Part shown: positions 23,260 to 47,320 of the stretch, piece after piece | Position numbering within the stretch: position 1 is the stretch's first letter | Layout of the letters: every line of letters begins with the position of its first letter | Made by a program: the position numbers and the translations under genes | The notes under the pieces: generated by a model | Seen by the model: the letters and a program-made list of their open reading frames with translations, nothing else | The model's database searches: none | Told to the model about the DNA's origin: nothing | DNA from: a phage | Direction: 5' to 3' (one strand) | Sequence record: PZ452599.1 | DNA: 51,263 nt

Positions 23260-23712
23260 ATGCACGTTATTACAGGTGAGATCAGAAAAGAGCCAAAGGT
23301 AAAGCAAATGCCTAACGGCAGCACGCTATATGTTGTTGAGCTTTCCGAGCGATACAAAGACCGAGAGGGAAATTGGCAGTATACAAACTATGTGTTTTTC
23401 TTTAACGCGAAAACAGACGGCCTGAATGGTTGGTATGCTGAGGCTTTCCAAGTAGGAAAGGTTATTTCTGTTTCCTGCGATACCTTGCGAGTTGAAACGC
23501 GAGAATACAACGGAAAGATTTACAGCACCGTGCAGCCTGGCGGATTTGCAAACCTGCTATTTAGCCAGCGCGGAGAAAGCCAGCAACAATATCAGCAGCG
23601 AACGCAAGGAGGCTGGGGGCAACCACAACAGCAACAGCAACAAAATACTCAACAGCAGCCACAGCAAAGCAATCAGCCGCCGATTGACTTTGACGATGAT
23701 ATACCATTCTAA
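23260..23712 (+). CDS. ssb: single-stranded DNA-binding protein
   Basis: 150 aa from ATG 23260 (GGAG RBS); Q/P-rich linker and canonical acidic tail DFDDDIPF. Confidence 0.85.
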   Translation: MHVITGEIRKEPKVKQMPNGSTLYVVELSERYKDREGNWQYTNYVFFFNAKTDGLNGWYAEAFQVGKVISVSCDTLRVETREYNGKIYSTVQPGGFANLLFSQRGESQQQYQQRTQGGWGQPQQQQQQNTQQQPQQSNQPPIDFDDDIPF

Positions 23713-30198: not shown

Positions 30199-30924
30199 AT
30201 GGCTAAAGATATTTTAGATAAAGACACCCATGACGCATTCGTTAGCTTTGAGCAGTTGGAGAGAGAAACGTTTATAGGGAATGCCCTTGCAACTGGAGGC
30301 CATTACCAGGCAGTAAAGCCAAATCAATATTATAAGGTAAGCGGAAACCGATACGCTGGAAGCACTACGCCGGACGTTGTGCGAGATATGTGGAGCACGC
30401 CTCAAGAGATCGTGGAGTGGATGGAATCAGAATTTGGTGAATACGATCTCGACGCGGCAGCAAGCCAGGAAAACGCAGTTTGCGAGAAGTTCTATAGCAA
30501 GGAGACAAACTGCTTAAAGCGTTGGTGGGGTAGCAACAAGCACGTATGGCTTAACCCGCCGTACAGCAACCCAACTCCATTTATCAAGAAAGCAATTGAG
30601 CAAATGGAGCACAACAACCAAATTGATGTTTTGTTGCCAGCAGACAACTCTACAGCATGGTTTTATGAGGCGCAGAAAAACGCGGCTGAAATTATCTGGA
30701 TCACTGGCGAGGTTTACGAAGAGGGTGGAGTAGAATACTCCCGCACCGGAAGAATTGCCTTTGTGTCTGGATTGACTGGTGAGCCTGTGCAGGGCAACAA
30801 CAAGGGAAGCGTGATTTTTGTCATGCGCAAACTTAAAGAAGGCGAGGAGCAGAAAACGCGATACGTTAAGATCAGCGATATTTGCCCTTCTGTAACCGAA
30901 CGTCGCGCACGCAAACGGAGCTAA
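30199..30924 (+). CDS. dam: DNA N6-adenine methyltransferase (phage Dam-like)
   Basis: 241 aa from ATG 30199 (GGAG 9 nt upstream); catalytic NPPY motif (VWLNPPYSN). Confidence 0.7.
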   Translation: MAKDILDKDTHDAFVSFEQLERETFIGNALATGGHYQAVKPNQYYKVSGNRYAGSTTPDVVRDMWSTPQEIVEWMESEFGEYDLDAAASQENAVCEKFYSKETNCLKRWWGSNKHVWLNPPYSNPTPFIKKAIEQMEHNNQIDVLLPADNSTAWFYEAQKNAAEIIWITGEVYEEGGVEYSRTGRIAFVSGLTGEPVQGNNKGSVIFVMRKLKEGEEQKTRYVKISDICPSVTERRARKRS

Positions 30925-34638: not shown

Positions 34639-34960
34639 CGCCCATCTCCCCTATTCTAGCCATATCCCTGATCCAGTCGTTGCGCATACCATCCAGGCTA
34701 TACAATTCGAATCCGAAAGGCCGCTTTGACGATCCTTTGGACCAGTATTTTCCGCAGACCCCATCTATATAACCAGCCGTCATCATTCTTGCGCAAAATT
34801 CCTTAGATGCAAGGCTGGCGAACATTCGCGGCGTAAGTCCGGCGGCCCGTGCGATCCGCTCGCATTCTCTATGCTGATAGATAAATTTGGCTATGTGCTG
34901 CCTGTTAAACCAGTCGTATGACTCACACCATTTATACAGATCAAGCAAAAACATAATCAT
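34565..34960 (-). CDS. hypothetical protein
   Basis: 131 aa; ATGA overlap with upstream gene stop. Confidence 0.5.
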   Translation of the reverse strand: MIMFLLDLYKWCESYDWFNRQHIAKFIYQHRECERIARAAGLTPRMFASLASKEFCARMMTAGYIDGVCGKYWSKGSSKRPFGFELYSLDGMRNDWIRDMARIGEMGDDELFQAKANRQDLEALRRKFNIT

Positions 34961-36537
34961 CCCAGCAGTATTGGATTTACAAAAATAACACCATTAATCA
35001 CACAAACATAATTTCTCTCTTCCAGCATTGGCAGCAAGTGCCCTTCTATCCTCTTCATTACGCCAGCTTGACCAACGAAAGGTTTTACCTTTCTCGCTGA
35101 TTCGTACAGGGCGCGAATATTCAGAATCCCTTTATTAGCCTTGCCGTGTCTAGTGATCAATTCAATCAATTTACCCATTTCAGCATCATCACCAGCATAA
35201 CCAGAAGCATTGGCGGCGCTAATGTATGTTTTGCTCAATTCCTGAAACATGATCAGCGCCTCTTGCATTGTTTCCACGTCGATCTCTTTCGACTTCTGCG
35301 GGTATCCAGCAGGATTAAACCAGTTGCGGATAACATGCAGGACGGAAGCAAGCCTGATCACCTGTTTATCCATTTTACCAAGCGCACCGCGTAACATTGT
35401 ATGAGAATACTTTCCGCCGTCTGCAAGATGCGGTTCCATATCCTGACGAGCAATGTTTAGCACTCGCATAGCTGAACGGCTTATTTTCAGCGATATATTT
35501 GATTCGCTCATGATGTTATGCACCAATTGATAATATTGGGCCTTCAATTCAGAATCCACCGCCTCATAGGTAGAATCACCATTTTCATCAATGAATGAGC
35601 GACGGCCTAAGAATGATTCCTCGCGGACCAACAAAAAGCGCTCACTCACACCGATACCGCGCGATCCAGCGTCCATGATTCCGCTTATCGTTTCATCCTG
35701 GGCTATAACGCTCATACATCCAAGCGCGCGAAAACTCATGTTATTGTCAGCATTAGCACGGGCAATTGATACGTGACCATTATCCCACGCCTTAAGCACT
35801 AGCTCACTGTTAGTCTTCCTTTCGCTATTTGCATAGGTCAAGCCTAGCAGACTGTTAATACTTGTTGCTTCGTCAGATATTACGGCAAAGTTACCTTGCT
35901 TGTTGTTGATTTTCGCCAAGCCTTCTGGAGTGGTATCTGAAACAGGGAAAGTTATATCACACATCTTTTCCAGCTTCTCCTCCAGATCCTCTTTTTCCTG
36001 GTATAGAGATTCCATATCAGCGCCTGATCTTTCGCTTTTCATCTCCTTTGCAAGACCTGCCAACTTTGCCTGTATTTTCTTTCTTTCCTTGCGGCGTTGC
36101 TCGTTGATCTTCTCAACTTCCGCAATCATCGGAGCAATAGCCATGCTGTTGATCGCAGATTTACCAGTTGACGGCGGCTGGCTTGTAACGACGTAAAGCG
36201 CAGTCGGCTGATCTGTTCCGTGATAGTCAACCGTAAAGCGTCCAAGCATAGCGGCAGAAATGCAGCCGATAAAGTGCATGTAAGCCGATGATTCAGGGAA
36301 TTGAACGGATCGCGCAATGCTGCGTGATAGCTTGCCGACAACATCAATATCATTACCAAGAGAAATAACGGGGTAGCGATCGTGACCGCTATTTACATCC
36401 TTCACGTCGCCCCAAAAGCTGGACGACTGGCGATAGCCGTTAGCCTGAATTGATACGCGAACTGGTGAAAGGTTCTGGCTTTCAGCCATAGCGATTATTT
36501 GCTGTGGAGTTAATTTGTTCGTTTCTAATGAAAACAT
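34957..36537 (-). CDS. P-loop NTPase, putative replication-associated protein
   Basis: 526 aa; AAAGGAGA RBS; Walker A-like SQPPSTGKSA; large early gene on the same strand as primase. Confidence 0.5.
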   Translation of the reverse strand: MFSLETNKLTPQQIIAMAESQNLSPVRVSIQANGYRQSSSFWGDVKDVNSGHDRYPVISLGNDIDVVGKLSRSIARSVQFPESSAYMHFIGCISAAMLGRFTVDYHGTDQPTALYVVTSQPPSTGKSAINSMAIAPMIAEVEKINEQRRKERKKIQAKLAGLAKEMKSERSGADMESLYQEKEDLEEKLEKMCDITFPVSDTTPEGLAKINNKQGNFAVISDEATSINSLLGLTYANSERKTNSELVLKAWDNGHVSIARANADNNMSFRALGCMSVIAQDETISGIMDAGSRGIGVSERFLLVREESFLGRRSFIDENGDSTYEAVDSELKAQYYQLVHNIMSESNISLKISRSAMRVLNIARQDMEPHLADGGKYSHTMLRGALGKMDKQVIRLASVLHVIRNWFNPAGYPQKSKEIDVETMQEALIMFQELSKTYISAANASGYAGDDAEMGKLIELITRHGKANKGILNIRALYESARKVKPFVGQAGVMKRIEGHLLPMLEERNYVCVINGVIFVNPILLG

Positions 36538-36610: not shown

Positions 36611-36827
36611 TGATCCGCTCTATTGCAACCAGAAGTCGATCAGGCTGGCGGTCGCTGTAGCATTCTCCTGTAATCCCATCCTTAAACGTAAAGTAAAGCG
36701 CCTTATGATATGAAAAACCAATCAGCCAACCTACCGCCGTTTTTTTGATGGGCCTGACTATATCGCCAGGCTTGAAAGTCTTTGTGGTAGAATGCGTTAC
36801 TTTGTAACGGTTCTCACTGTTTATCAC
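36606..36827 (-). CDS. hypothetical protein
   Basis: 73 aa; GTG start overlapping upstream stop (GTGA); stop inside motif copy. Confidence 0.4.
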   Translation of the reverse strand: MINSENRYKVTHSTTKTFKPGDIVRPIKKTAVGWLIGFSYHKALYFTFKDGITGECYSDRQPDRLLVAIERIK

Positions 36828-37210
36828 AGATATTTGCCCTCAAACAGATAACATCCGCCAGCAGAGAATCCGACCTCTTCACGGTACAGGTTCCAGCGGT
36901 CGCCGCACTCATCAAAAACATAACCCGCAACGCTTCCAAGCGGTCGCCCTTTCTCGATCTGGTATCGCTTGCCCTGCTTAAAGTGCTTTTTGCACGGCAT
37001 GTTATGATCTACAAACGTGCAAAGAACGGTTTTTGTGTTAATGGCGCGGTAATCATCTCGGTTTGCTGGAAGCCAGCGGCTACCCTTAACAAGCGTCTTA
37101 ACTTGGAACTCTTCCACCTCGATCACATCATCACTTCCTGCAATCTTCTGATAAACCTTTTTAAAACGGCCTTTCATCAATACGTTGGTTTCATTACAGA
37201 TAACATTCAT
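36824..37210 (-). CDS. hypothetical protein
   Basis: 128 aa; AAGGAGA RBS; downstream of motif promoter 37241-37284. Confidence 0.55.
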   Translation of the reverse strand: MNVICNETNVLMKGRFKKVYQKIAGSDDVIEVEEFQVKTLVKGSRWLPANRDDYRAINTKTVLCTFVDHNMPCKKHFKQGKRYQIEKGRPLGSVAGYVFDECGDRWNLYREEVGFSAGGCYLFEGKYL

Positions 37211-37240
37211 GATCAGATCTCCTTTGTTTGTTCGATGTGA

Positions 37241-37284
37241 TTATGCCAGGTTTTTACACCTGGCTTTTAACAAAAAGTGCTATT
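37241..37284 (-). promoter_or_regulatory. motif-type promoter
   Basis: Motif 37264-37284; spacer hairpin GCCAGG...CCTGGC; CATAAT -10; upstream of gene 36824-37210. Confidence 0.5.
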
Positions 37285-37990
37285 TTGAGTTTGACTCAAA
37301 GACGGCGCGAGCAAATCCGCGCGGAGTGAGGGAGCGGATCATCTTTGTGCGCGATGACTTACCGCCAGTTTTGGCCCAGCCTGGATTATCTTTGTCTTCC
37401 TCTTTCGGCAGGATTAAAGCGCGCGGAGGAATAACAAAGCCGTTGCCAGTCCAGAGGCACGTTTTCTTAAAATAGCGATCCCGTGCCGGAATAATATCAG
37501 GGAAGTCGGGATGTTTATCATCTTCCGGCAGATAGCCAGCGTAATCGCACGGATGGAACGTATAATCAGGCTTTCGCCATAACGTTGACAACTTGCCAAC
37601 CGGATTTTCGATCATGTAAGGAACACCGAAATAATCAGCTATATCAGCCGCGATTCTGCAAGTGTCGGCGGCCTCATCTTGGAACGATGGATTCTCAAGG
37701 CGTTTTTTGGCCCAATGGCGAGATCCGCTATTTGCAAGGTCGGTGCACGGCGGAAATGCCATAATAAAGTCAGGAATGCCCCATTCCTCCCAGCGCGCGC
37801 GGTGGTAAAATCTTTCATCAATCCAGACGTTAACGTATTCGATATTCTCATGCTGTATGCGCACTGACTGGTAATCACCGTGATCGCCGCCGTCAGCATT
37901 AAAGCAAATGCACTTATAGCCATTATCAGCCCAATCTTTAACGGCTTTACCAGATCCATCAAATAGGGAGAATATTAAACCTTTATACAT
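37280..37990 (-). CDS. DNA (cytosine-5)-methyltransferase-like protein
   Basis: 236 aa from ATG 37990 (GAGG 8 nt upstream); motif I FDGSG, motif IV FPPCTDLANSG, motif VI ENPVG. Confidence 0.6.
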   Translation of the reverse strand: MYKGLIFSLFDGSGKAVKDWADNGYKCICFNADGGDHGDYQSVRIQHENIEYVNVWIDERFYHRARWEEWGIPDFIMAFPPCTDLANSGSRHWAKKRLENPSFQDEAADTCRIAADIADYFGVPYMIENPVGKLSTLWRKPDYTFHPCDYAGYLPEDDKHPDFPDIIPARDRYFKKTCLWTGNGFVIPPRALILPKEEDKDNPGWAKTGGKSSRTKMIRSLTPRGFARAVFESNSK

Positions 37991-38000
37991 CGTCATTACC

Positions 38001-38225
38001 TCAAAACGGAAAACAGCTCGGACAACTAGGATCGAAATCGCATCCACAATCATTAACAATCATATTGGGATCTGCAAATATTGCGCTTGATTCAAGATCC
38101 ATATCCATATCACCTAAAGCCTCATCAAGAGTCTTAATTTTATATGCCACTTCAAGCGCCGCCTCTTTATTTAGTCCGGCATCTTCTGCCATTTGAAGGC
38201 GCTCAAAAAAACCGTCCTGACTCAT
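38001..38225 (-). CDS. small acidic protein (candidate DNA-mimic / anti-restriction)
   Basis: 74 aa, strongly D/E-rich with C-terminal CGCDFDPSCPSC; GGGAG RBS; ATGA-coupled to upstream membrane peptide; immediately upstream of the C5-MTase gene. Confidence 0.45.
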   Translation of the reverse strand: MSQDGFFERLQMAEDAGLNKEAALEVAYKIKTLDEALGDMDMDLESSAIFADPNMIVNDCGCDFDPSCPSCFPF

Positions 38226-38338
38226 CGCATAACTCCCTTAATAACAGCCAAGATAATAGCCAGGCCAGCAGCAGTAACCAAAAATCCAACCGCGCCAATA
38301 ATCGAATAAAAAAAGAAATCAATAGCTTTATCTATCAT
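38222..38338 (-). CDS. small membrane peptide (38 aa, not in ORF track)
   Basis: ATG 38338 with GAGGTG RBS; single hydrophobic helix; stop overlaps next ATG. Confidence 0.45.
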   Translation of the reverse strand: MIDKAIDFFFYSIIGAVGFLVTAAGLAIILAVIKGVMR

Positions 38339-38349
38339 TTTTCACCTCA

Positions 38350-38373
38350 TTTAAAAGGCGGCAAAACGCCGCC
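38350..38373 (-). terminator. intrinsic terminator
   Basis: Hairpin GGCGGC-AAAA-CGCCGCC with A-run on + strand (T-run on - strand) after gene 38381-38608. Confidence 0.5.
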
Positions 38374-38380
38374 AGATTAA

Positions 38381-38608
38381 TTAAAGAGCGCGCCAACTTT
38401 GAATATAGAAAGCGTTTTCTTCCAGTAATTCTTTTACCTGATCTTTATTGTATTTGCGCACCTTACCGCCTGGATGGATACCAATAAGATAGCCGCCTTT
38501 GCCCTCGGTGATAGTGATTTGGCTAATTCCGCAGGACTTATCAAGTTTTACAGCCACGCGGTGATGAGCGTCAATAGTTGCCATAATGTTTAAAACTTTT
38601 GCTTTCAT
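38381..38608 (-). CDS. hypothetical protein
   Basis: 75 aa; GAGGA RBS; followed by leftward intrinsic terminator. Confidence 0.5.
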   Translation of the reverse strand: MKAKVLNIMATIDAHHRVAVKLDKSCGISQITITEGKGGYLIGIHPGGKVRKYNKDQVKELLEENAFYIQSWRAL

Positions 38609-38716
38609 TTAAATATCCTCAATTGAAATATGAATGACGTGGCGCTCTTTTTCCGTCGCCGCCGTAATGGTCATTTGCAACCGCCACCATCCAAGCGTTT
38701 TTGAAAATAAATAGCC

Positions 38717-38929
38717 TCATTTCTTATTTTTCAGCTTAAATTTATGACCTGGAACACCAGCTCCAATATACCCATCGTTGTATTCCATTAAATAAAGGTG
38801 AAGACCATTATCTGAAATTACATGAGGATCTTCTTTGAGATTTCCCATTAGTGGATATTCTTTTCCGCGCGTAAATTTCCAAATTGAGTTATAAGTTTCT
38901 ACGCATTTAAGTTTTAATTGCTTTGCCAT
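38717..38929 (-). CDS. hypothetical protein
   Basis: 70 aa; TAATG-type overlap with upstream gene. Confidence 0.45.
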   Translation of the reverse strand: MAKQLKLKCVETYNSIWKFTRGKEYPLMGNLKEDPHVISDNGLHLYLMEYNDGYIGAGVPGHKFKLKNKK

Positions 38930-39210
38930 TATGCGATCCCAGTTACGTTAAAACTTACAGCCTTTGTTGCGCTAAATACATAAGCATCAACAGCGCCGCC
39001 AAATACACGAATTTTACCCTGGCCGTACTGCGCATTCATATTTCGCCAAACCGTTCTATTAGAGCAGAATGCGCTACCAGTCTTAATAAGCGTATCCATC
39101 TCTTTTCTTAGATCGCGATAGTCCAGCCAGAATCTAAAGGCACGCTGTTTAATTCGCGCCGCCTTGATTTTTTCTCTTGCGCTATTGAAATCATTCTTTC
39201 CGTATGCCAT
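38929..39210 (-). CDS. hypothetical protein
   Basis: 93 aa; overlapping start/stop with neighbours. Confidence 0.45.
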   Translation of the reverse strand: MAYGKNDFNSAREKIKAARIKQRAFRFWLDYRDLRKEMDTLIKTGSAFCSNRTVWRNMNAQYGQGKIRVFGGAVDAYVFSATKAVSFNVTGIA

Positions 39211-39407
39211 TAAATGATCTCCATGTATGTTTCAAAGCCATTTAACTTGAACAGGCCGTTTTCACATTTGCGCACGTTCCAAGTTAGCCCTGAGTGGTAC
39301 GCCTCCATATCATCAAGGTCAATGGTGATTTCAGCACCTTTCTTAAACAAACCTTTTTCGTGAGACTTGTCGCGCTTAACAACTTTAACATCAACCTGAT
39401 TTTCCAT
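39210..39407 (-). CDS. hypothetical protein
   Basis: 65 aa from ATG 39407 (GAGGA 7 nt upstream); track start 39458 would lie inside promoter motif 39463-39483. Confidence 0.5.
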   Translation of the reverse strand: MENQVDVKVVKRDKSHEKGLFKKGAEITIDLDDMEAYHSGLTWNVRKCENGLFKLNGFETYMEII

Positions 39408-39438
39408 CTTTAAATCCTCGCTTGTTGTCGATGGGTGT

Positions 39439-39483
39439 AATATACCATTCAGGCGCACATAGTTTTTAACAAAAAGTGCTATT
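39439..39483 (-). promoter_or_regulatory. motif-type promoter with conserved leader
   Basis: Motif 39463-39483; TATATT -10; leader ACACCCATCGACAACAAGCGAGGA nearly identical to that at 39915-39944. Confidence 0.5.
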
Positions 39484-46729: not shown

Positions 46730-47320
46730 ATGAAACGAGACATTATCATCCTTAATGGGCCTCCAGGTTGTGGAAAGGACACTATTGCAGCTTACCTAAC
46801 GGGCCATCGTTACCCTGCTGTCAAGGCGTCATTCAAACAGCCGATGTTCGATATTGCGTTTTCCATGCTGGGAGTGTACCGATACGATGAATTTATGGAC
46901 CTGTACAACGACCGAGAACAAAAAGAAAAGCCTCAAGTTATTTTGGGCGGCAAGTCACCTCGACAATTCATGATCTGGATTAGCGAGGATGTAATGAAGC
47001 CAGTTTTTGGAGATCACTATTTCGGGCGTCGAATGGTTGAAGAGATTCACGAGATGTACCGAGATTTGGCGGTTGTGATCAGTGATGGCGGATTCCCCGA
47101 AGAAATCAAACCGCTGGTTAAGGCAGGGCATGAAGTGCATATTTGCCGATTGCATCGCGACGGCTTCACGTTTGCTGGCGATTCGAGAGACTACATTGAC
47201 CTGAGCGGTTATCACTATCGAATCCATCACTATGACTTCCACTTGCAGGACGGCAAACCGGAACTGGCTGTAAACGAGATCGTCAATGCTGTCAAATGGA
47301 AACACACGCAGATTAAATAG
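46730..47320 (+). CDS. P-loop nucleotide/nucleoside-monophosphate kinase (T4 gp1 dNMP kinase-like)
   Basis: 196 aa; Walker A LNGPPGCGKDT; stop is followed by a variant motif copy. Confidence 0.55.
   Translation: MKRDIIILNGPPGCGKDTIAAYLTGHRYPAVKASFKQPMFDIAFSMLGVYRYDEFMDLYNDREQKEKPQVILGGKSPRQFMIWISEDVMKPVFGDHYFGRRMVEEIHEMYRDLAVVISDGGFPEEIKPLVKAGHEVHICRLHRDGFTFAGDSRDYIDLSGYHYRIHHYDFHLQDGKPELAVNEIVNAVKWKHTQIK

What the first reader, a model, noticed from the sequence alone, without database searches (positions are those of the whole stretch)
37280..38338. Candidate anti-restriction module: small membrane peptide, highly acidic protein and C5-cytosine methyltransferase
Three leftward genes are ATGA-coupled or adjacent: a 38-aa hydrophobic peptide, a 74-aa D/E-rich protein with a C-terminal Cys cluster, and a Dcm-like methyltransferase. 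Together with the separate Dam-like gene (30199-30924) the phage carries two DNA methyltransferases. The acidic protein is the right size and charge for a DNA-mimic restriction inhibitor, but has no recognisable motif.
Basis: inference. Interest (0 to 1): 0.5.

Follow-up and report, generated by a model that had tools for sequence, protein, structure and literature searches.

The report
Phage Dcm methylase with acidic neighbour

Summary
On the minus strand lie a 38-aa single-pass membrane peptide (38222..38338), a 74-aa protein with net charge -12 and four C-terminal Cys (38001..38225, ATGA overlap), and a C5-cytosine methyltransferase (37280..37990). A Dam gene sits at 30199..30924. The window is a Warwickvirus (Drexlerviridae), 98-99% identical to phages atuna and FritzSarasin.

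The methyltransferase is already known. It is 91% identical to KarlJaspers Dcm. The Dcm of a KarlJaspers strain makes 5mC at CCWGG and triggers retron Ec86.

The "anti-restriction module" reading is not supported.
- Overlapping gene junctions are common in this operon.
- The methylase and the acidic gene occur without each other in other phages.
- Phage Bas11 carries a 77%-identical acidic protein plus Dcm and Dam, yet EcoKI, EcoRI, EcoRV and EcoP1 restrict it 10^-2 to 10^-7.
- Restriction resistance in the closest relatives tracks loss of sites. The window has 1 EcoRI, 0 EcoRV and 0 EcoKI sites.

New lead: 195 of 214 family members end in [IVLMF]-P-[FW], with an extra W or L in a minority. 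T1-type members end DDDDYIPW, like the SSB tip DFDDDIPF. My best but unproven guess is a decoy or adaptor for proteins that bind the SSB tail.

The parts
38222..38338 (-). 38-aa single-pass membrane peptide gene. It has its own SD (GAGGTG), and its stop overlaps the next gene's ATG (ATGA).
   Evidence: GRAVY 1.63. tblastn finds it in 101 phage records. Four unrelated 36-42-aa transmembrane peptides occupy the same slot, overlapping the acidic gene's start by 1-4 nt, in different Drexlerviridae lineages. Other lineages have none.
38001..38225 (-). 74-aa acidic protein (phrog_9323). It has an N-terminal helical core (AGLNKEAALEVAYK...LDEALGDMDMDLES), an acidic low-confidence linker, a CxC-x5-CxxC cluster, and an extreme C-terminus FPF.
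   Evidence: Only 29 clusters at 50% identity among 1.84 billion representatives.
37280..37990 (-). dcm: compact (236 aa) DNMT3-like C5-cytosine DNA methyltransferase (phrog_757). Alternative ATG at 37996.
   Evidence: 91% identical to KarlJaspers Bas06 Dcm. C82, E128, K175 and K176 are conserved.
37999..38002 (-). Shine-Dalgarno GAGG of dcm, overlapping the TGA stop of the acidic gene.
   Evidence: Sequence. In phage K42, two retron-escape mutants carry a base change 9 bp upstream of the dcm start. In the KarlJaspers Bas06 sequence that position falls in this GAGG. Matching the two is my inference.
38357..38373 (-). Terminator-like hairpin GGCGGCGTTTTGCCGCC followed by TTTT, between the 75-aa gene and the 38-aa gene.
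   Evidence: 7 pairs, 6 G-C; first-listed of the terminator-like sites in 34.8-42.8 kb.
37245..37264 (-). 7-bp hairpin directly after the dcm stop. Each arm carries a CCWGG site. It has no T-run.
   Evidence: -15.3 kcal/mol, z -3.45; CCWGG at 37246 and 37259.
30199..30924 (+).
   Evidence: PF05869, E 9.8e-62. Annotated as Dam-like in FritzSarasin.

Best explanation
The locus is a run of three consecutive genes in the long leftward early operon of a Warwickvirus (T1-like) coliphage. It is not a dedicated anti-restriction cassette.

(1) Methyltransferase: shown by orthology. This is the phage Dcm. It is a compact DNMT3-like enzyme that puts 5-methylcytosine on CCWGG. That can protect phage DNA only from CCWGG-specific restriction. 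The cost is that it triggers retron Ec86.

(2) The 74-aa acidic protein: inferred. It belongs to a small, uncharacterised family found mainly in Drexlerviridae, with longer relatives in Ackermannviridae. A short helical core is followed by a flexible acidic segment that ends in [IVLMF]-P-[FW]. This copies the C-terminal tip of SSB (DFDDDIPF), which the phage's own SSB also carries. I propose that it docks through this tip into the pockets of proteins that normally bind the SSB tail. It would then act as a soluble decoy or adaptor in phage replication or recombination, not as a DNA mimic that blocks restriction enzymes.

(3) The 38-aa peptide is a lineage-specific small membrane protein of unknown role, inserted behind a terminator-like hairpin.

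Confidence by part: Dcm identity about 0.9; 'not an anti-restriction module' about 0.75; SSB-tail mechanism about 0.3.
For: Dcm
- phrog_757, E 6e-85.
- Invariant FxGSG, PC and ENP motifs across 42 homologues.
- AF2 model with pLDDT 91. Its best PDB matches are DNMT3A/3B catalytic domains, E 1e-8 (weak sequence match).
- 91% identity to KarlJaspers Bas06 Dcm, with C82/E128/K175/K176 conserved.
- The Dcm of phage K42, a KarlJaspers strain whose genome is 95.4% identical to Bas06, gives 5mC on CCWGG-containing msDNA and triggers Ec86. Escape mutants lose it (bioRxiv 10.1101/2023.08.16.553469).

Not a module
- The methylase lies directly downstream of the acidic gene in most of 78 viral loci. In the T1 clade it is about 3 kb away or not seen.
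- JeanPiccard has Dcm at another locus and no acidic gene.
- Methylase homologues outside the phage groups that carry the acidic gene (about 43-kb and 54-kb contigs) have no acidic gene upstream.
- Ackermannviridae homologues of the acidic core have no methylase nearby.

Not anti-restriction
- Bas11 data.
- Site depletion: the window has EcoRI 1 (expected 21), EcoRV 0 (10.7) and EcoKI 0 (6.2). The maximal-order model agrees. BASEL site counts and plating efficiencies match this.

SSB-like tip
- 195 of 214 unique family members end in [IVLMF]P[FW], with an optional extra W or L. T1-clade members lack the Cys residues and end DDDDYIPW; others end FDDGIPF or KDEIPF.
- The window's SSB ends PPIDFDDDIPF.
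- Among 3650 unique ORFs of at least 50 aa from these phages, 52 end that way. About 45 are acidic-family members and 3 are SSBs. The remaining 4 are one P-loop NTPase (...EWADDIPW) and three ORFs that look spurious. Two more NTPase homologues with a DDIPW tail turned up among further loci.
- The tail region is low-confidence in AF2.
- SSB-Ct = DDDIPF is a documented docking motif (PMC5872125).
Against: - The tip is only three residues long, and I noticed the resemblance after the fact.
- In the window the tip is C-F-P-F preceded by Ser and Cys, not by Asp.
- Some members carry an extra W or L after the F. That does not fit the classical recognition of the terminal Phe carboxylate of SSB.
- The four conserved Cys suggest a folded zinc knuckle rather than a free tail.
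- Ackermannviridae relatives keep the helical core but lack the tip. The core may therefore carry the main function.
- No binding, structural or genetic data exist for this family. No complex could be modelled here.
- Strict adjacency and translational coupling to dcm across most Drexlerviridae could still reflect a functional link.
Confidence: 0.4

Rival explanations
1. One reading: the acidic protein is an Ocr/ArdA-like DNA mimic that inhibits type I (or other classical) restriction enzymes. Together with Dcm and the membrane peptide it forms an anti-restriction module.
For: - Small and the most acidic protein in the window.
- An early gene, adjacent to and coupled with a methyltransferase in most Drexlerviridae.
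- The nearest relatives Bas04 and Bas05 are the most restriction-resistant Drexlerviridae in BASEL.
Against: - Bas11 carries a 77%-identical orthologue plus Dcm and Dam. Its plating efficiency is 1e-4 to 1e-5 on EcoKI, about 5e-7 on EcoRI and EcoRV, and 4e-3 on EcoP1.
- Bas04, Bas05 and Bas06 resistance matches zero or few recognition sites. Bas04 is still hit by EcoRI (4 sites, EOP 0.008) and by EcoCFT_II (3e-4).
- No Pfam hit to Ocr, ArdA or any other family at E<=1.
- The model shows no rigid charged scaffold.
- Conserved positions are mostly hydrophobic residues, Gly and Cys rather than surface acidic residues.
Confidence: 0.07
2. The acidic protein counters a defence system that BASEL did not test (BREX, Druantia, Zorya, type IV enzymes, retrons and others), by DNA mimicry or by direct binding.
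For: - Location among small, dispensable early genes. A neighbouring gene family in the same operon (Gp54 of Bas11) is a defence trigger suspected of such a role.
- High acidity.
- Narrow, phage-restricted distribution.
Against: - No homology to any protein of known function.
- Strong conservation across phages of Escherichia, Klebsiella, Salmonella, Citrobacter and Enterobacter fits a core phage function better than a strain-specific counter-defence.
- An anti-McrBC (Arn-like) role is unnecessary. CmCWGG is not an RmC site, and K-12 itself carries this mark (established knowledge).
Confidence: 0.2
3. The acidic protein is an accessory or regulator of Dcm. It might be a zinc-binding partner that tunes activity or target choice of a methylase with a very small target-recognition region. 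Or the gene may serve mainly to drive coupled translation of dcm.
For: - The methylase is immediately downstream even for acidic-protein homologues only 36-49% identical.
- The dcm SD overlaps the acidic gene's stop codon.
- Members with a Cys cluster are the ones adjacent to dcm, while T1-clade members without Cys are not.
Against: - K42 Dcm expressed alone methylates msDNA and triggers Ec86.
- The methylase family has more than 2000 members, most without this neighbour.
- T1, L058 and the Ackermannviridae keep the acidic core with no methylase nearby.
- JeanPiccard has Dcm without the acidic gene.
- The link between the Cys cluster and adjacency is confounded by phylogeny.
Confidence: 0.12
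4. The acidic protein is a small zinc-binding host-takeover factor acting on some other target through its helical core (for example RNA polymerase, a nuclease such as RecBCD, or cell division). On this view the C-terminal tip is simply part of the zinc knuckle.
For: - Four nearly invariant Cys in most members.
- The helical core is the only part shared with the longer Ackermannviridae proteins.
Against: - The T1 clade replaced all Cys with Asp yet kept the I-P-W end.
- Sensitivity to P2 Old is classically linked to RecBCD inhibition (my own knowledge). It does not track the gene: Bas04 and Bas05 are insensitive and Bas11 is sensitive, and all three carry it.
Confidence: 0.2

Closest known systems
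Phage K42 (KarlJaspers-like) Dcm, the trigger of retron Ec86 (bioRxiv 10.1101/2023.08.16.553469); annotated in BASEL as 'Dcm-like C5 cytosine methyltransferase'
   Same: - Same 711-bp gene in the same operon position.
- 91% identity to KarlJaspers Bas06 Dcm.
- Same catalytic Cys82 and E128/K175/K176.
- Same DNMT3A-like predicted fold.
   Different: - Activity and CCWGG specificity were not measured for this allele.
- The window phage is a Warwickvirus, not a Hanrivervirus.
E. coli Dcm / classical bacterial C5-methyltransferases (Pfam PF00145), M.HhaI type
   Same: Motifs I (FxGxG), IV (PC) and VI (ENV-like ENP). The reported target CCWGG is the same as for E. coli Dcm.
   Different: - No PF00145 or NCBIfam hit.
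- Only 236 aa, with about 75 residues where the target-recognition domain normally sits.
- The structure is closest to eukaryotic DNMT3 catalytic domains.
C-terminal tip of bacterial SSB (SSB-Ct, DFDDDIPF), and by analogy the acidic aromatic-ended tails of T7 gp2.5 and gp4 (own knowledge)
   Same: An acidic, apparently flexible segment that ends in hydrophobic-Pro-aromatic at the very C-terminus. T1-type members end DDDDYIPW. The phage SSB in the same genome ends DFDDDIPF.
   Different: - No OB fold and no sign of ssDNA binding.
- The window allele ends CFPF with a Cys cluster.
- Some members add a residue after the Phe.
- Binding to any SSB partner is untested.
DNA-mimic anti-restriction proteins (T7 Ocr, ArdA, T4 Arn)
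   Same: Small size, strong negative charge, early expression.
   Different: - No sequence relationship.
- No predicted rigid charge array.
- An orthologue fails to protect Bas11 from type I, II or III restriction.

Membership tests
C5-cytosine DNA methyltransferase (Dcm-like, phrog_757) | SAM-binding motif I (F-x-G-x-G) | tested here: met
   FSLFDGSG. F12, G14, S15 and G16 are invariant in 42 homologues (numbering from the MTMYKG start).
C5-cytosine DNA methyltransferase (Dcm-like, phrog_757) | Catalytic Pro-Cys dipeptide (motif IV) and E-N-V-type motif VI | tested here: met
   FPPCTDL (P83 and C84 invariant) and ENP (E130, N131, P132 invariant). These equal C82 and E128 of the mutated K42 enzyme.
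C5-cytosine DNA methyltransferase (Dcm-like, phrog_757) | Class I methyltransferase fold superposable on known C5 enzymes | tested here: met
   AF2 pLDDT 91.4, pTM 0.89. In the Foldseek PDB search all 50 listed matches are DNMT3-family catalytic domains, E 1e-8 to 5e-6, TM about 0.5.
C5-cytosine DNA methyltransferase (Dcm-like, phrog_757) | Match to the curated family model (Pfam PF00145 or NCBIfam) | tested here: not met
   No Pfam or NCBIfam hit at E<=1. Only the PHROG model matches (6e-85). The sequence is too divergent, so this is not evidence against the fold.
C5-cytosine DNA methyltransferase (Dcm-like, phrog_757) | Produces 5-methylcytosine at a defined site (CCWGG) | not testable with these tools
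   Shown by LC-MS and motif mutation for K42 Dcm. In the window CCWGG is not avoided (maximal-order ratio 0.96). That is compatible but not proof.
Ocr / ArdA-type DNA-mimic anti-restriction proteins | Sequence membership in a known anti-restriction family | tested here: not met
   No Pfam family at E<=1, no NCBIfam hit. The only PDB sequence match is a designed repeat protein at E 3.2.
Ocr / ArdA-type DNA-mimic anti-restriction proteins | Strong net negative charge | tested here: met
   Net -12 over 74 aa, pI 4.05. More acidic per residue than any of the 87 greedy ORF calls in the window.
Ocr / ArdA-type DNA-mimic anti-restriction proteins | Rigid fold presenting carboxylates in a DNA-like array | tested here: inconclusive
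   AF2 mean pLDDT 62.8. Only three short helices (6-15, 20-27, 33-37), and the acidic half is low-confidence coil.
Ocr / ArdA-type DNA-mimic anti-restriction proteins | Protects the phage from type I restriction | tested here: not met
   By proxy from published data. Bas11 (orthologue 77% identical, 7 EcoKI sites) plates at 4e-6 to 8e-5 on EcoKI.
SSB C-terminal tip motif (SSB-Ct) | Extreme C-terminus hydrophobic-Pro-Phe preceded by acidic residues | tested here: inconclusive
   Across the family, 195 of 214 members end [IVLMF]P[FW], with an extra W or L in a minority. T1 clade ends DDDDYIPW; others FDDGIPF or KDEIPF. The window allele is ...DFDPSCPSCFPF, where the residues just before the tip are Cys and Ser.
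SSB C-terminal tip motif (SSB-Ct) | Attached to an OB-fold ssDNA-binding domain (that is, being an SSB) | tested here: not met
   The N-terminal part is helical, so the protein is not an SSB. The real SSB is at 23260..23712.
SSB C-terminal tip motif (SSB-Ct) | Binds the tail pockets of SSB-interacting proteins | not testable with these tools
   No complex prediction or binding assay was available.

The most novel reading that the evidence does not exclude
The acidic protein family is a free-standing mimic of the SSB C-terminal tail. On this reading it is a small phage protein that competes with, or substitutes for, SSB at the docking pockets of host (or phage) replication, repair and nuclease proteins. 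The same portable D-D-I-P-[FW] tip would be reused by several Drexlerviridae proteins: SSB, this protein, and in some lineages a dNMP-kinase-like NTPase. I found no non-SSB phage protein described in this way in the literature searches.
Probability: 0.3. Interest if true: 0.65.

Novelty: new member of a known kind. Interest (0 to 1): 0.35.

Why it matters
The methylase needs no new explanation. It is another allele of a phage Dcm that marks CCWGG and that retron Ec86 senses.

The useful results are two.

The first is negative. In this phage lineage, restriction resistance comes from purging recognition sites, not from an inhibitor protein. A small acidic gene next to a methylase should therefore not be annotated as anti-restriction.

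The second is a testable lead. A conserved, uncharacterised early protein of T1-like phages ends in an SSB-like docking tip. If it engages SSB-partner proteins, that would reveal how phages without their own DNA polymerase tap or blunt the host's SSB interaction network. It would also give a compact natural ligand for pockets already pursued as antibacterial targets.

Tried and rejected
1. Arn-like anti-McrBC role for the acidic protein. Rejected: CCWGG methylation gives CmCWGG, not RmC, and K-12 carries the same mark (established knowledge).
2. Identity with Gp54 of Bas11, the CapRel SJ46 trigger. Rejected: Gp54 is a 66-aa beta-barrel encoded four genes upstream. Its window homologue is at 39213..39407.
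3. Over-representation of CCWGG and GATC as a signature of self-methylation. The first-order Markov model gave z of 9-11, but the maximal-order model gives ratios 0.96 and 1.03. The sites are simply not avoided.
4. 'Rosetta-stone' idea that the acidic protein and the DDIPW tail on the P-loop NTPase are mutually exclusive. Rejected: both occur in the same contigs (L208 with L055, L229 with L040).
5. Fold search with the acidic-protein model returned only uncharacterised homologues. The PDB profile search returned nothing meaningful.
6. Pfam scan of the longer relatives (162-217 aa) found no informative fused domain.
7. Literature searches for a described function of this protein, for Drexlerviridae anti-defence genes, and for SSB-tail mimics found nothing on it.
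8. Whether the 2,262-bp deletion in K42 escape mutant 1 removes the acidic gene could not be settled from the text.
Full report
**What the window is.** The region 36800-39300 is 99.2% identical to Escherichia phage atuna and 98% identical to BASEL phage FritzSarasin (Bas04). Both are Drexlerviridae, Tempevirinae, genus Warwickvirus. The finding lies in a long leftward operon of small early genes. The operon runs from a divergent promoter region near 42.2 kb down to a DUF3987 helicase-like gene at 34957..36537.

**Checking the observation.**
- The 38-aa peptide (38222..38338, minus strand) has GRAVY 1.63. It has one 26-residue uncharged stretch followed by KGVMR.
- The 74-aa protein (38001..38225) has 16 acidic and 4 basic residues, net -12, pI 4.05. 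Cys residues are at 60, 62, 68 and 71. It is more acidic per residue than any of the 87 greedy ORF calls in the window.
- Its ATG overlaps the stop of the 38-aa gene as ATGA.
- The methyltransferase ends at 37280. Some GenBank records start it at an upstream TTG, giving 257-259 aa and an overlap with the acidic gene. Homologues are 227-238 aa. A GAGG lies 8 nt before ATG 37990, and the characterised orthologue is a 711-bp gene. The real gene is therefore most likely 37280..37990.
- The Dam-like gene at 30199..30924 matches Pfam PF05869 at E 1e-61.
- Overlaps of 1-4 nt occur at 5 of about 9 junctions between 36.6 and 39.5 kb. Coupling here is ordinary and does not delimit a module.

**The methyltransferase is already known.**
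- It has no Pfam or NCBIfam hit but matches phrog_757 'DNA methyltransferase' at 6e-85.
- Its family has more than 2000 members. In 42 aligned homologues the motifs FxGSG, PC and ENP are invariant.
- The AlphaFold model is confident (pLDDT 91.4). Its best PDB matches are all DNMT3-family catalytic domains (E 1e-8, TM about 0.5). This agrees with a weak sequence match to DNMT3B motifs I and IV.
- A preprint (10.1101/2023.08.16.553469) studied the Dcm of phage K42, a KarlJaspers strain whose genome is 95.4% identical to Bas06. That 711-bp gene triggers retron Ec86 and yields 5mC on the msDNA stem-loop, which carries a CCTGG motif. A C82A/E128A/K175A/K176A mutant abolishes the effect. All four escape mutants disrupt the gene or its expression: a large deletion, a frameshift, and in two a base change 9 bp upstream of the start.
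- The window protein is 91% identical to KarlJaspers Bas06 Dcm and keeps all four residues.
- In the Bas06 sequence, position -9 falls in the GAGG that overlaps the stop codon of the acidic gene. This supports the start and SD assigned here, by inference.
- The same preprint reports Dcm in 34 of 35 Ec86-sensitive phages.

**Do the three genes form a module?**
- I fetched 78 viral loci that encode a relative of the acidic protein. In most, a methylase homologue lies directly downstream, even where the acidic protein is only 36-49% identical. All of these are T1-like phages, so the shared order may simply be inherited.
- The exceptions are informative. In the T1 clade the methylase is about 3 kb away, or absent within 4 kb (including the T1-length contig, L053). 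Ackermannviridae carry the helical core inside longer proteins of roughly 160-230 aa, with no methylase nearby. In Klebsiella phage Magnus the gene sits beside the T4-like DNA polymerase.
- Conversely, methylase homologues in about 43-kb and 54-kb phage contigs have no acidic gene upstream. BASEL phage JeanPiccard has Dcm at a different locus and no acidic gene at all.
- K42 Dcm works when expressed alone.
- The membrane peptide is even less fixed. Four unrelated 36-42-aa transmembrane peptides occupy the same slot, overlapping the acidic gene's start by 1-4 nt, in different lineages. In others the preceding 73-75-aa gene abuts directly.
- In the window the peptide gene follows a terminator-like hairpin, GGCGGCGTTTTGCCGCC plus a T-run, at 38357..38373.

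**Is the acidic protein a restriction inhibitor?** The BASEL paper notes that FritzSarasin and PeterMerian are unusually resistant to restriction. It found no simple link to methyltransferase genes (PMC8594841). Its own tables explain the phenotype.

| Phage | EcoKI sites | EcoCFT_I sites | EcoRI sites | EcoRV sites |
|---|---|---|---|---|
| Bas04 FritzSarasin | 0 | 0 | 4 | 0 |
| Bas05 PeterMerian | 0 | 1 | 1 | 0 |
| Bas06 KarlJaspers | 0 | 1 | 0 | 1 |

EcoRI and EcoRV values are the table's counts halved, because the table counts palindromes twice.

- Plating follows these numbers. Bas04 is still reduced to about 0.008 by EcoRI and to 3e-4 by EcoCFT_II.
- The window has 1 EcoRI site (21 expected), no EcoRV site (10.7), no EcoKI site (6.2) and 20 EcoP1 sites (52). 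The maximal-order Markov model gives the same picture.
- The decisive comparison is Bas11 (JohannLBurckhardt). It carries an acidic orthologue (bas11_0050, 77% identical) directly upstream of an intact dcm, plus Dam. It has 7 EcoKI sites. It plates at 4e-6 to 8e-5 on EcoKI, about 5e-7 on EcoRI and EcoRV, and about 4e-3 on EcoP1.
- The protein has no Pfam, NCBIfam or PDB relative. Its model shows three short helices followed by low-confidence coil (pLDDT 62.8).
- The DNA-mimic anti-restriction reading is therefore not supported for the restriction types tested. Untested systems remain possible.

**What the acidic protein looks like.**
- The family is small. It has 29 clusters at 50% identity among 1.84 billion representatives and 220 clusters at 90% identity. 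It occurs almost only in T1-like phages of enterobacteria.
- The conserved core is F..RL..AE.AGLN.E.AL.VAY....L..ALGDMDMD.ES. A variable acidic stretch follows, then usually C.C.FDP.C..C.
- The most persistent feature is the very end. 195 of 214 unique members of at least 55 aa finish with [IVLMF]-P-[FW], sometimes followed by one W or L. Typical endings are CFPF or CIPF.
- T1-clade members have lost all four Cys and end ...DDDDYIPW. Others end FDDGIPF, KDEIPF or DFDQLPF.
- This resembles the C-terminal tip of bacterial SSB, DFDDDIPF. That tip is the docking motif for many replication, repair and nuclease proteins (PMC5872125). The phage's own SSB (23260..23712) ends PPIDFDDDIPF.
About 45 belong to this family and 3 are SSBs. 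The other 4 are a dNMP-kinase-like P-loop NTPase of JeanPiccard (...EWADDIPW) and three ORFs that look spurious. Two more NTPase homologues with a DDIPW tail turned up among further loci.
- In these phages the tip therefore looks like a portable motif shared by SSB, this protein and occasionally the NTPase.

**Proposed mechanism and its limits.** I infer that the acidic protein uses this tip to occupy the pockets that normally bind the SSB tail. It would act as a decoy or as an adaptor that brings its helical core to those partners. T1-like phages encode a primase, helicases, a recombinase, an exonuclease and SSB, but no DNA polymerase is annotated in FritzSarasin. They must therefore engage host replication proteins. 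That makes such a function plausible. This is a hypothesis at about 0.3 probability. Points against it:
- the motif is short and I noticed it post hoc;
- the window allele has Cys and Ser rather than Asp before FPF;
- some members add a residue after the Phe;
- the Cys cluster may form a zinc knuckle;
- Ackermannviridae relatives keep the core without the tip.

Rivals are an inhibitor of an untested defence system, a Dcm accessory, or another host-takeover role.

**Verdict.** The methylase is already known, and the module idea and the DNA-mimic idea fail the available tests. What remains of interest is an uncharacterised, conserved early protein with an SSB-like C-terminal tip. Interest is modest at 0.35. 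If the tail-mimic reading proved true it would deserve about 0.65.

Noticed in passing
whole window: Strong purging of restriction sites. EcoRI: 1 site (expected 21-27). EcoRV: 0 (11-28). EcoKI: 0 (6). EcoP1 AGACC: 20 (30-52). GATC and CCWGG are not avoided (maximal-order ratios 1.03 and 0.96). JeanPiccard lacks the T1-type Dam and has GATC at 0.29 of expectation.
   Followed up: yes
window 39213..39407 (-), within ORF 39210..39458: Homologue (53% identity, E 2.5e-20) of Gp54 of phage Bas11. Gp54 is the small beta-barrel protein that directly activates the CapRel SJ46 defence protein (PMC11578894). It lies in the same early operon, a few genes upstream of the acidic gene.
   Followed up: partly
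L163 43029..43646 (JeanPiccard bas02_0067); also L208 and L229. Window homologue at 46730..47320 (+).: In some Drexlerviridae the dNMP-kinase-like P-loop NTPase ends ...EWADDIPW or ...WSDDIPW, an SSB-like tip. The window's copy ends ...VKWKHTQIK and lacks it. This suggests the tip is a portable docking motif in this phage family.
   Followed up: partly
window 23260..23712 (+): The phage SSB gets no Pfam hit at E<=0.01. It still ends with the exact E. coli SSB tip, PPIDFDDDIPF.
   Followed up: partly
window 38357..38373 (-): Terminator-like hairpin (6 G-C pairs plus a T-run), the first-listed such site in 34.8-42.8 kb. It sits 18 nt before the 38-aa gene, inside an otherwise tightly packed operon. 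It may attenuate transcription into the three genes and the helicase gene beyond.
   Followed up: no
window 37245..37264 (-): A 7-bp hairpin right after the dcm stop (z -3.45 against shuffles). Each arm contains a CCWGG site, the reported Dcm target. It has no T-run, and its meaning is unknown.
   Followed up: no
public records matched: Annotation errors in relatives. dcm is started at an upstream TTG and overlaps the acidic gene. The 38-aa peptide is labelled 'translocation/assembly module TamB'. The acidic protein is labelled 'putative cytosine DNA methylase' (for example Pseudomonas phage Motto, Stenotrophomonas phage BUCT705). About 20 records named 'Campylobacter phage' carry this T1-like coliphage sequence and are probably mislabelled.
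   Followed up: no
L165 3249..3806 (Klebsiella phage Magnus gp020) and L071-L078: Ackermannviridae encode longer proteins, roughly 160-230 aa by ORF span (Magnus gp020 is 185 aa). They contain the same helical core (AGLN...ALGDMDMD.ES) but lack the Cys cluster and the I-P-F tip. In Magnus the gene lies next to the T4-like DNA polymerase gene.
   Followed up: partly
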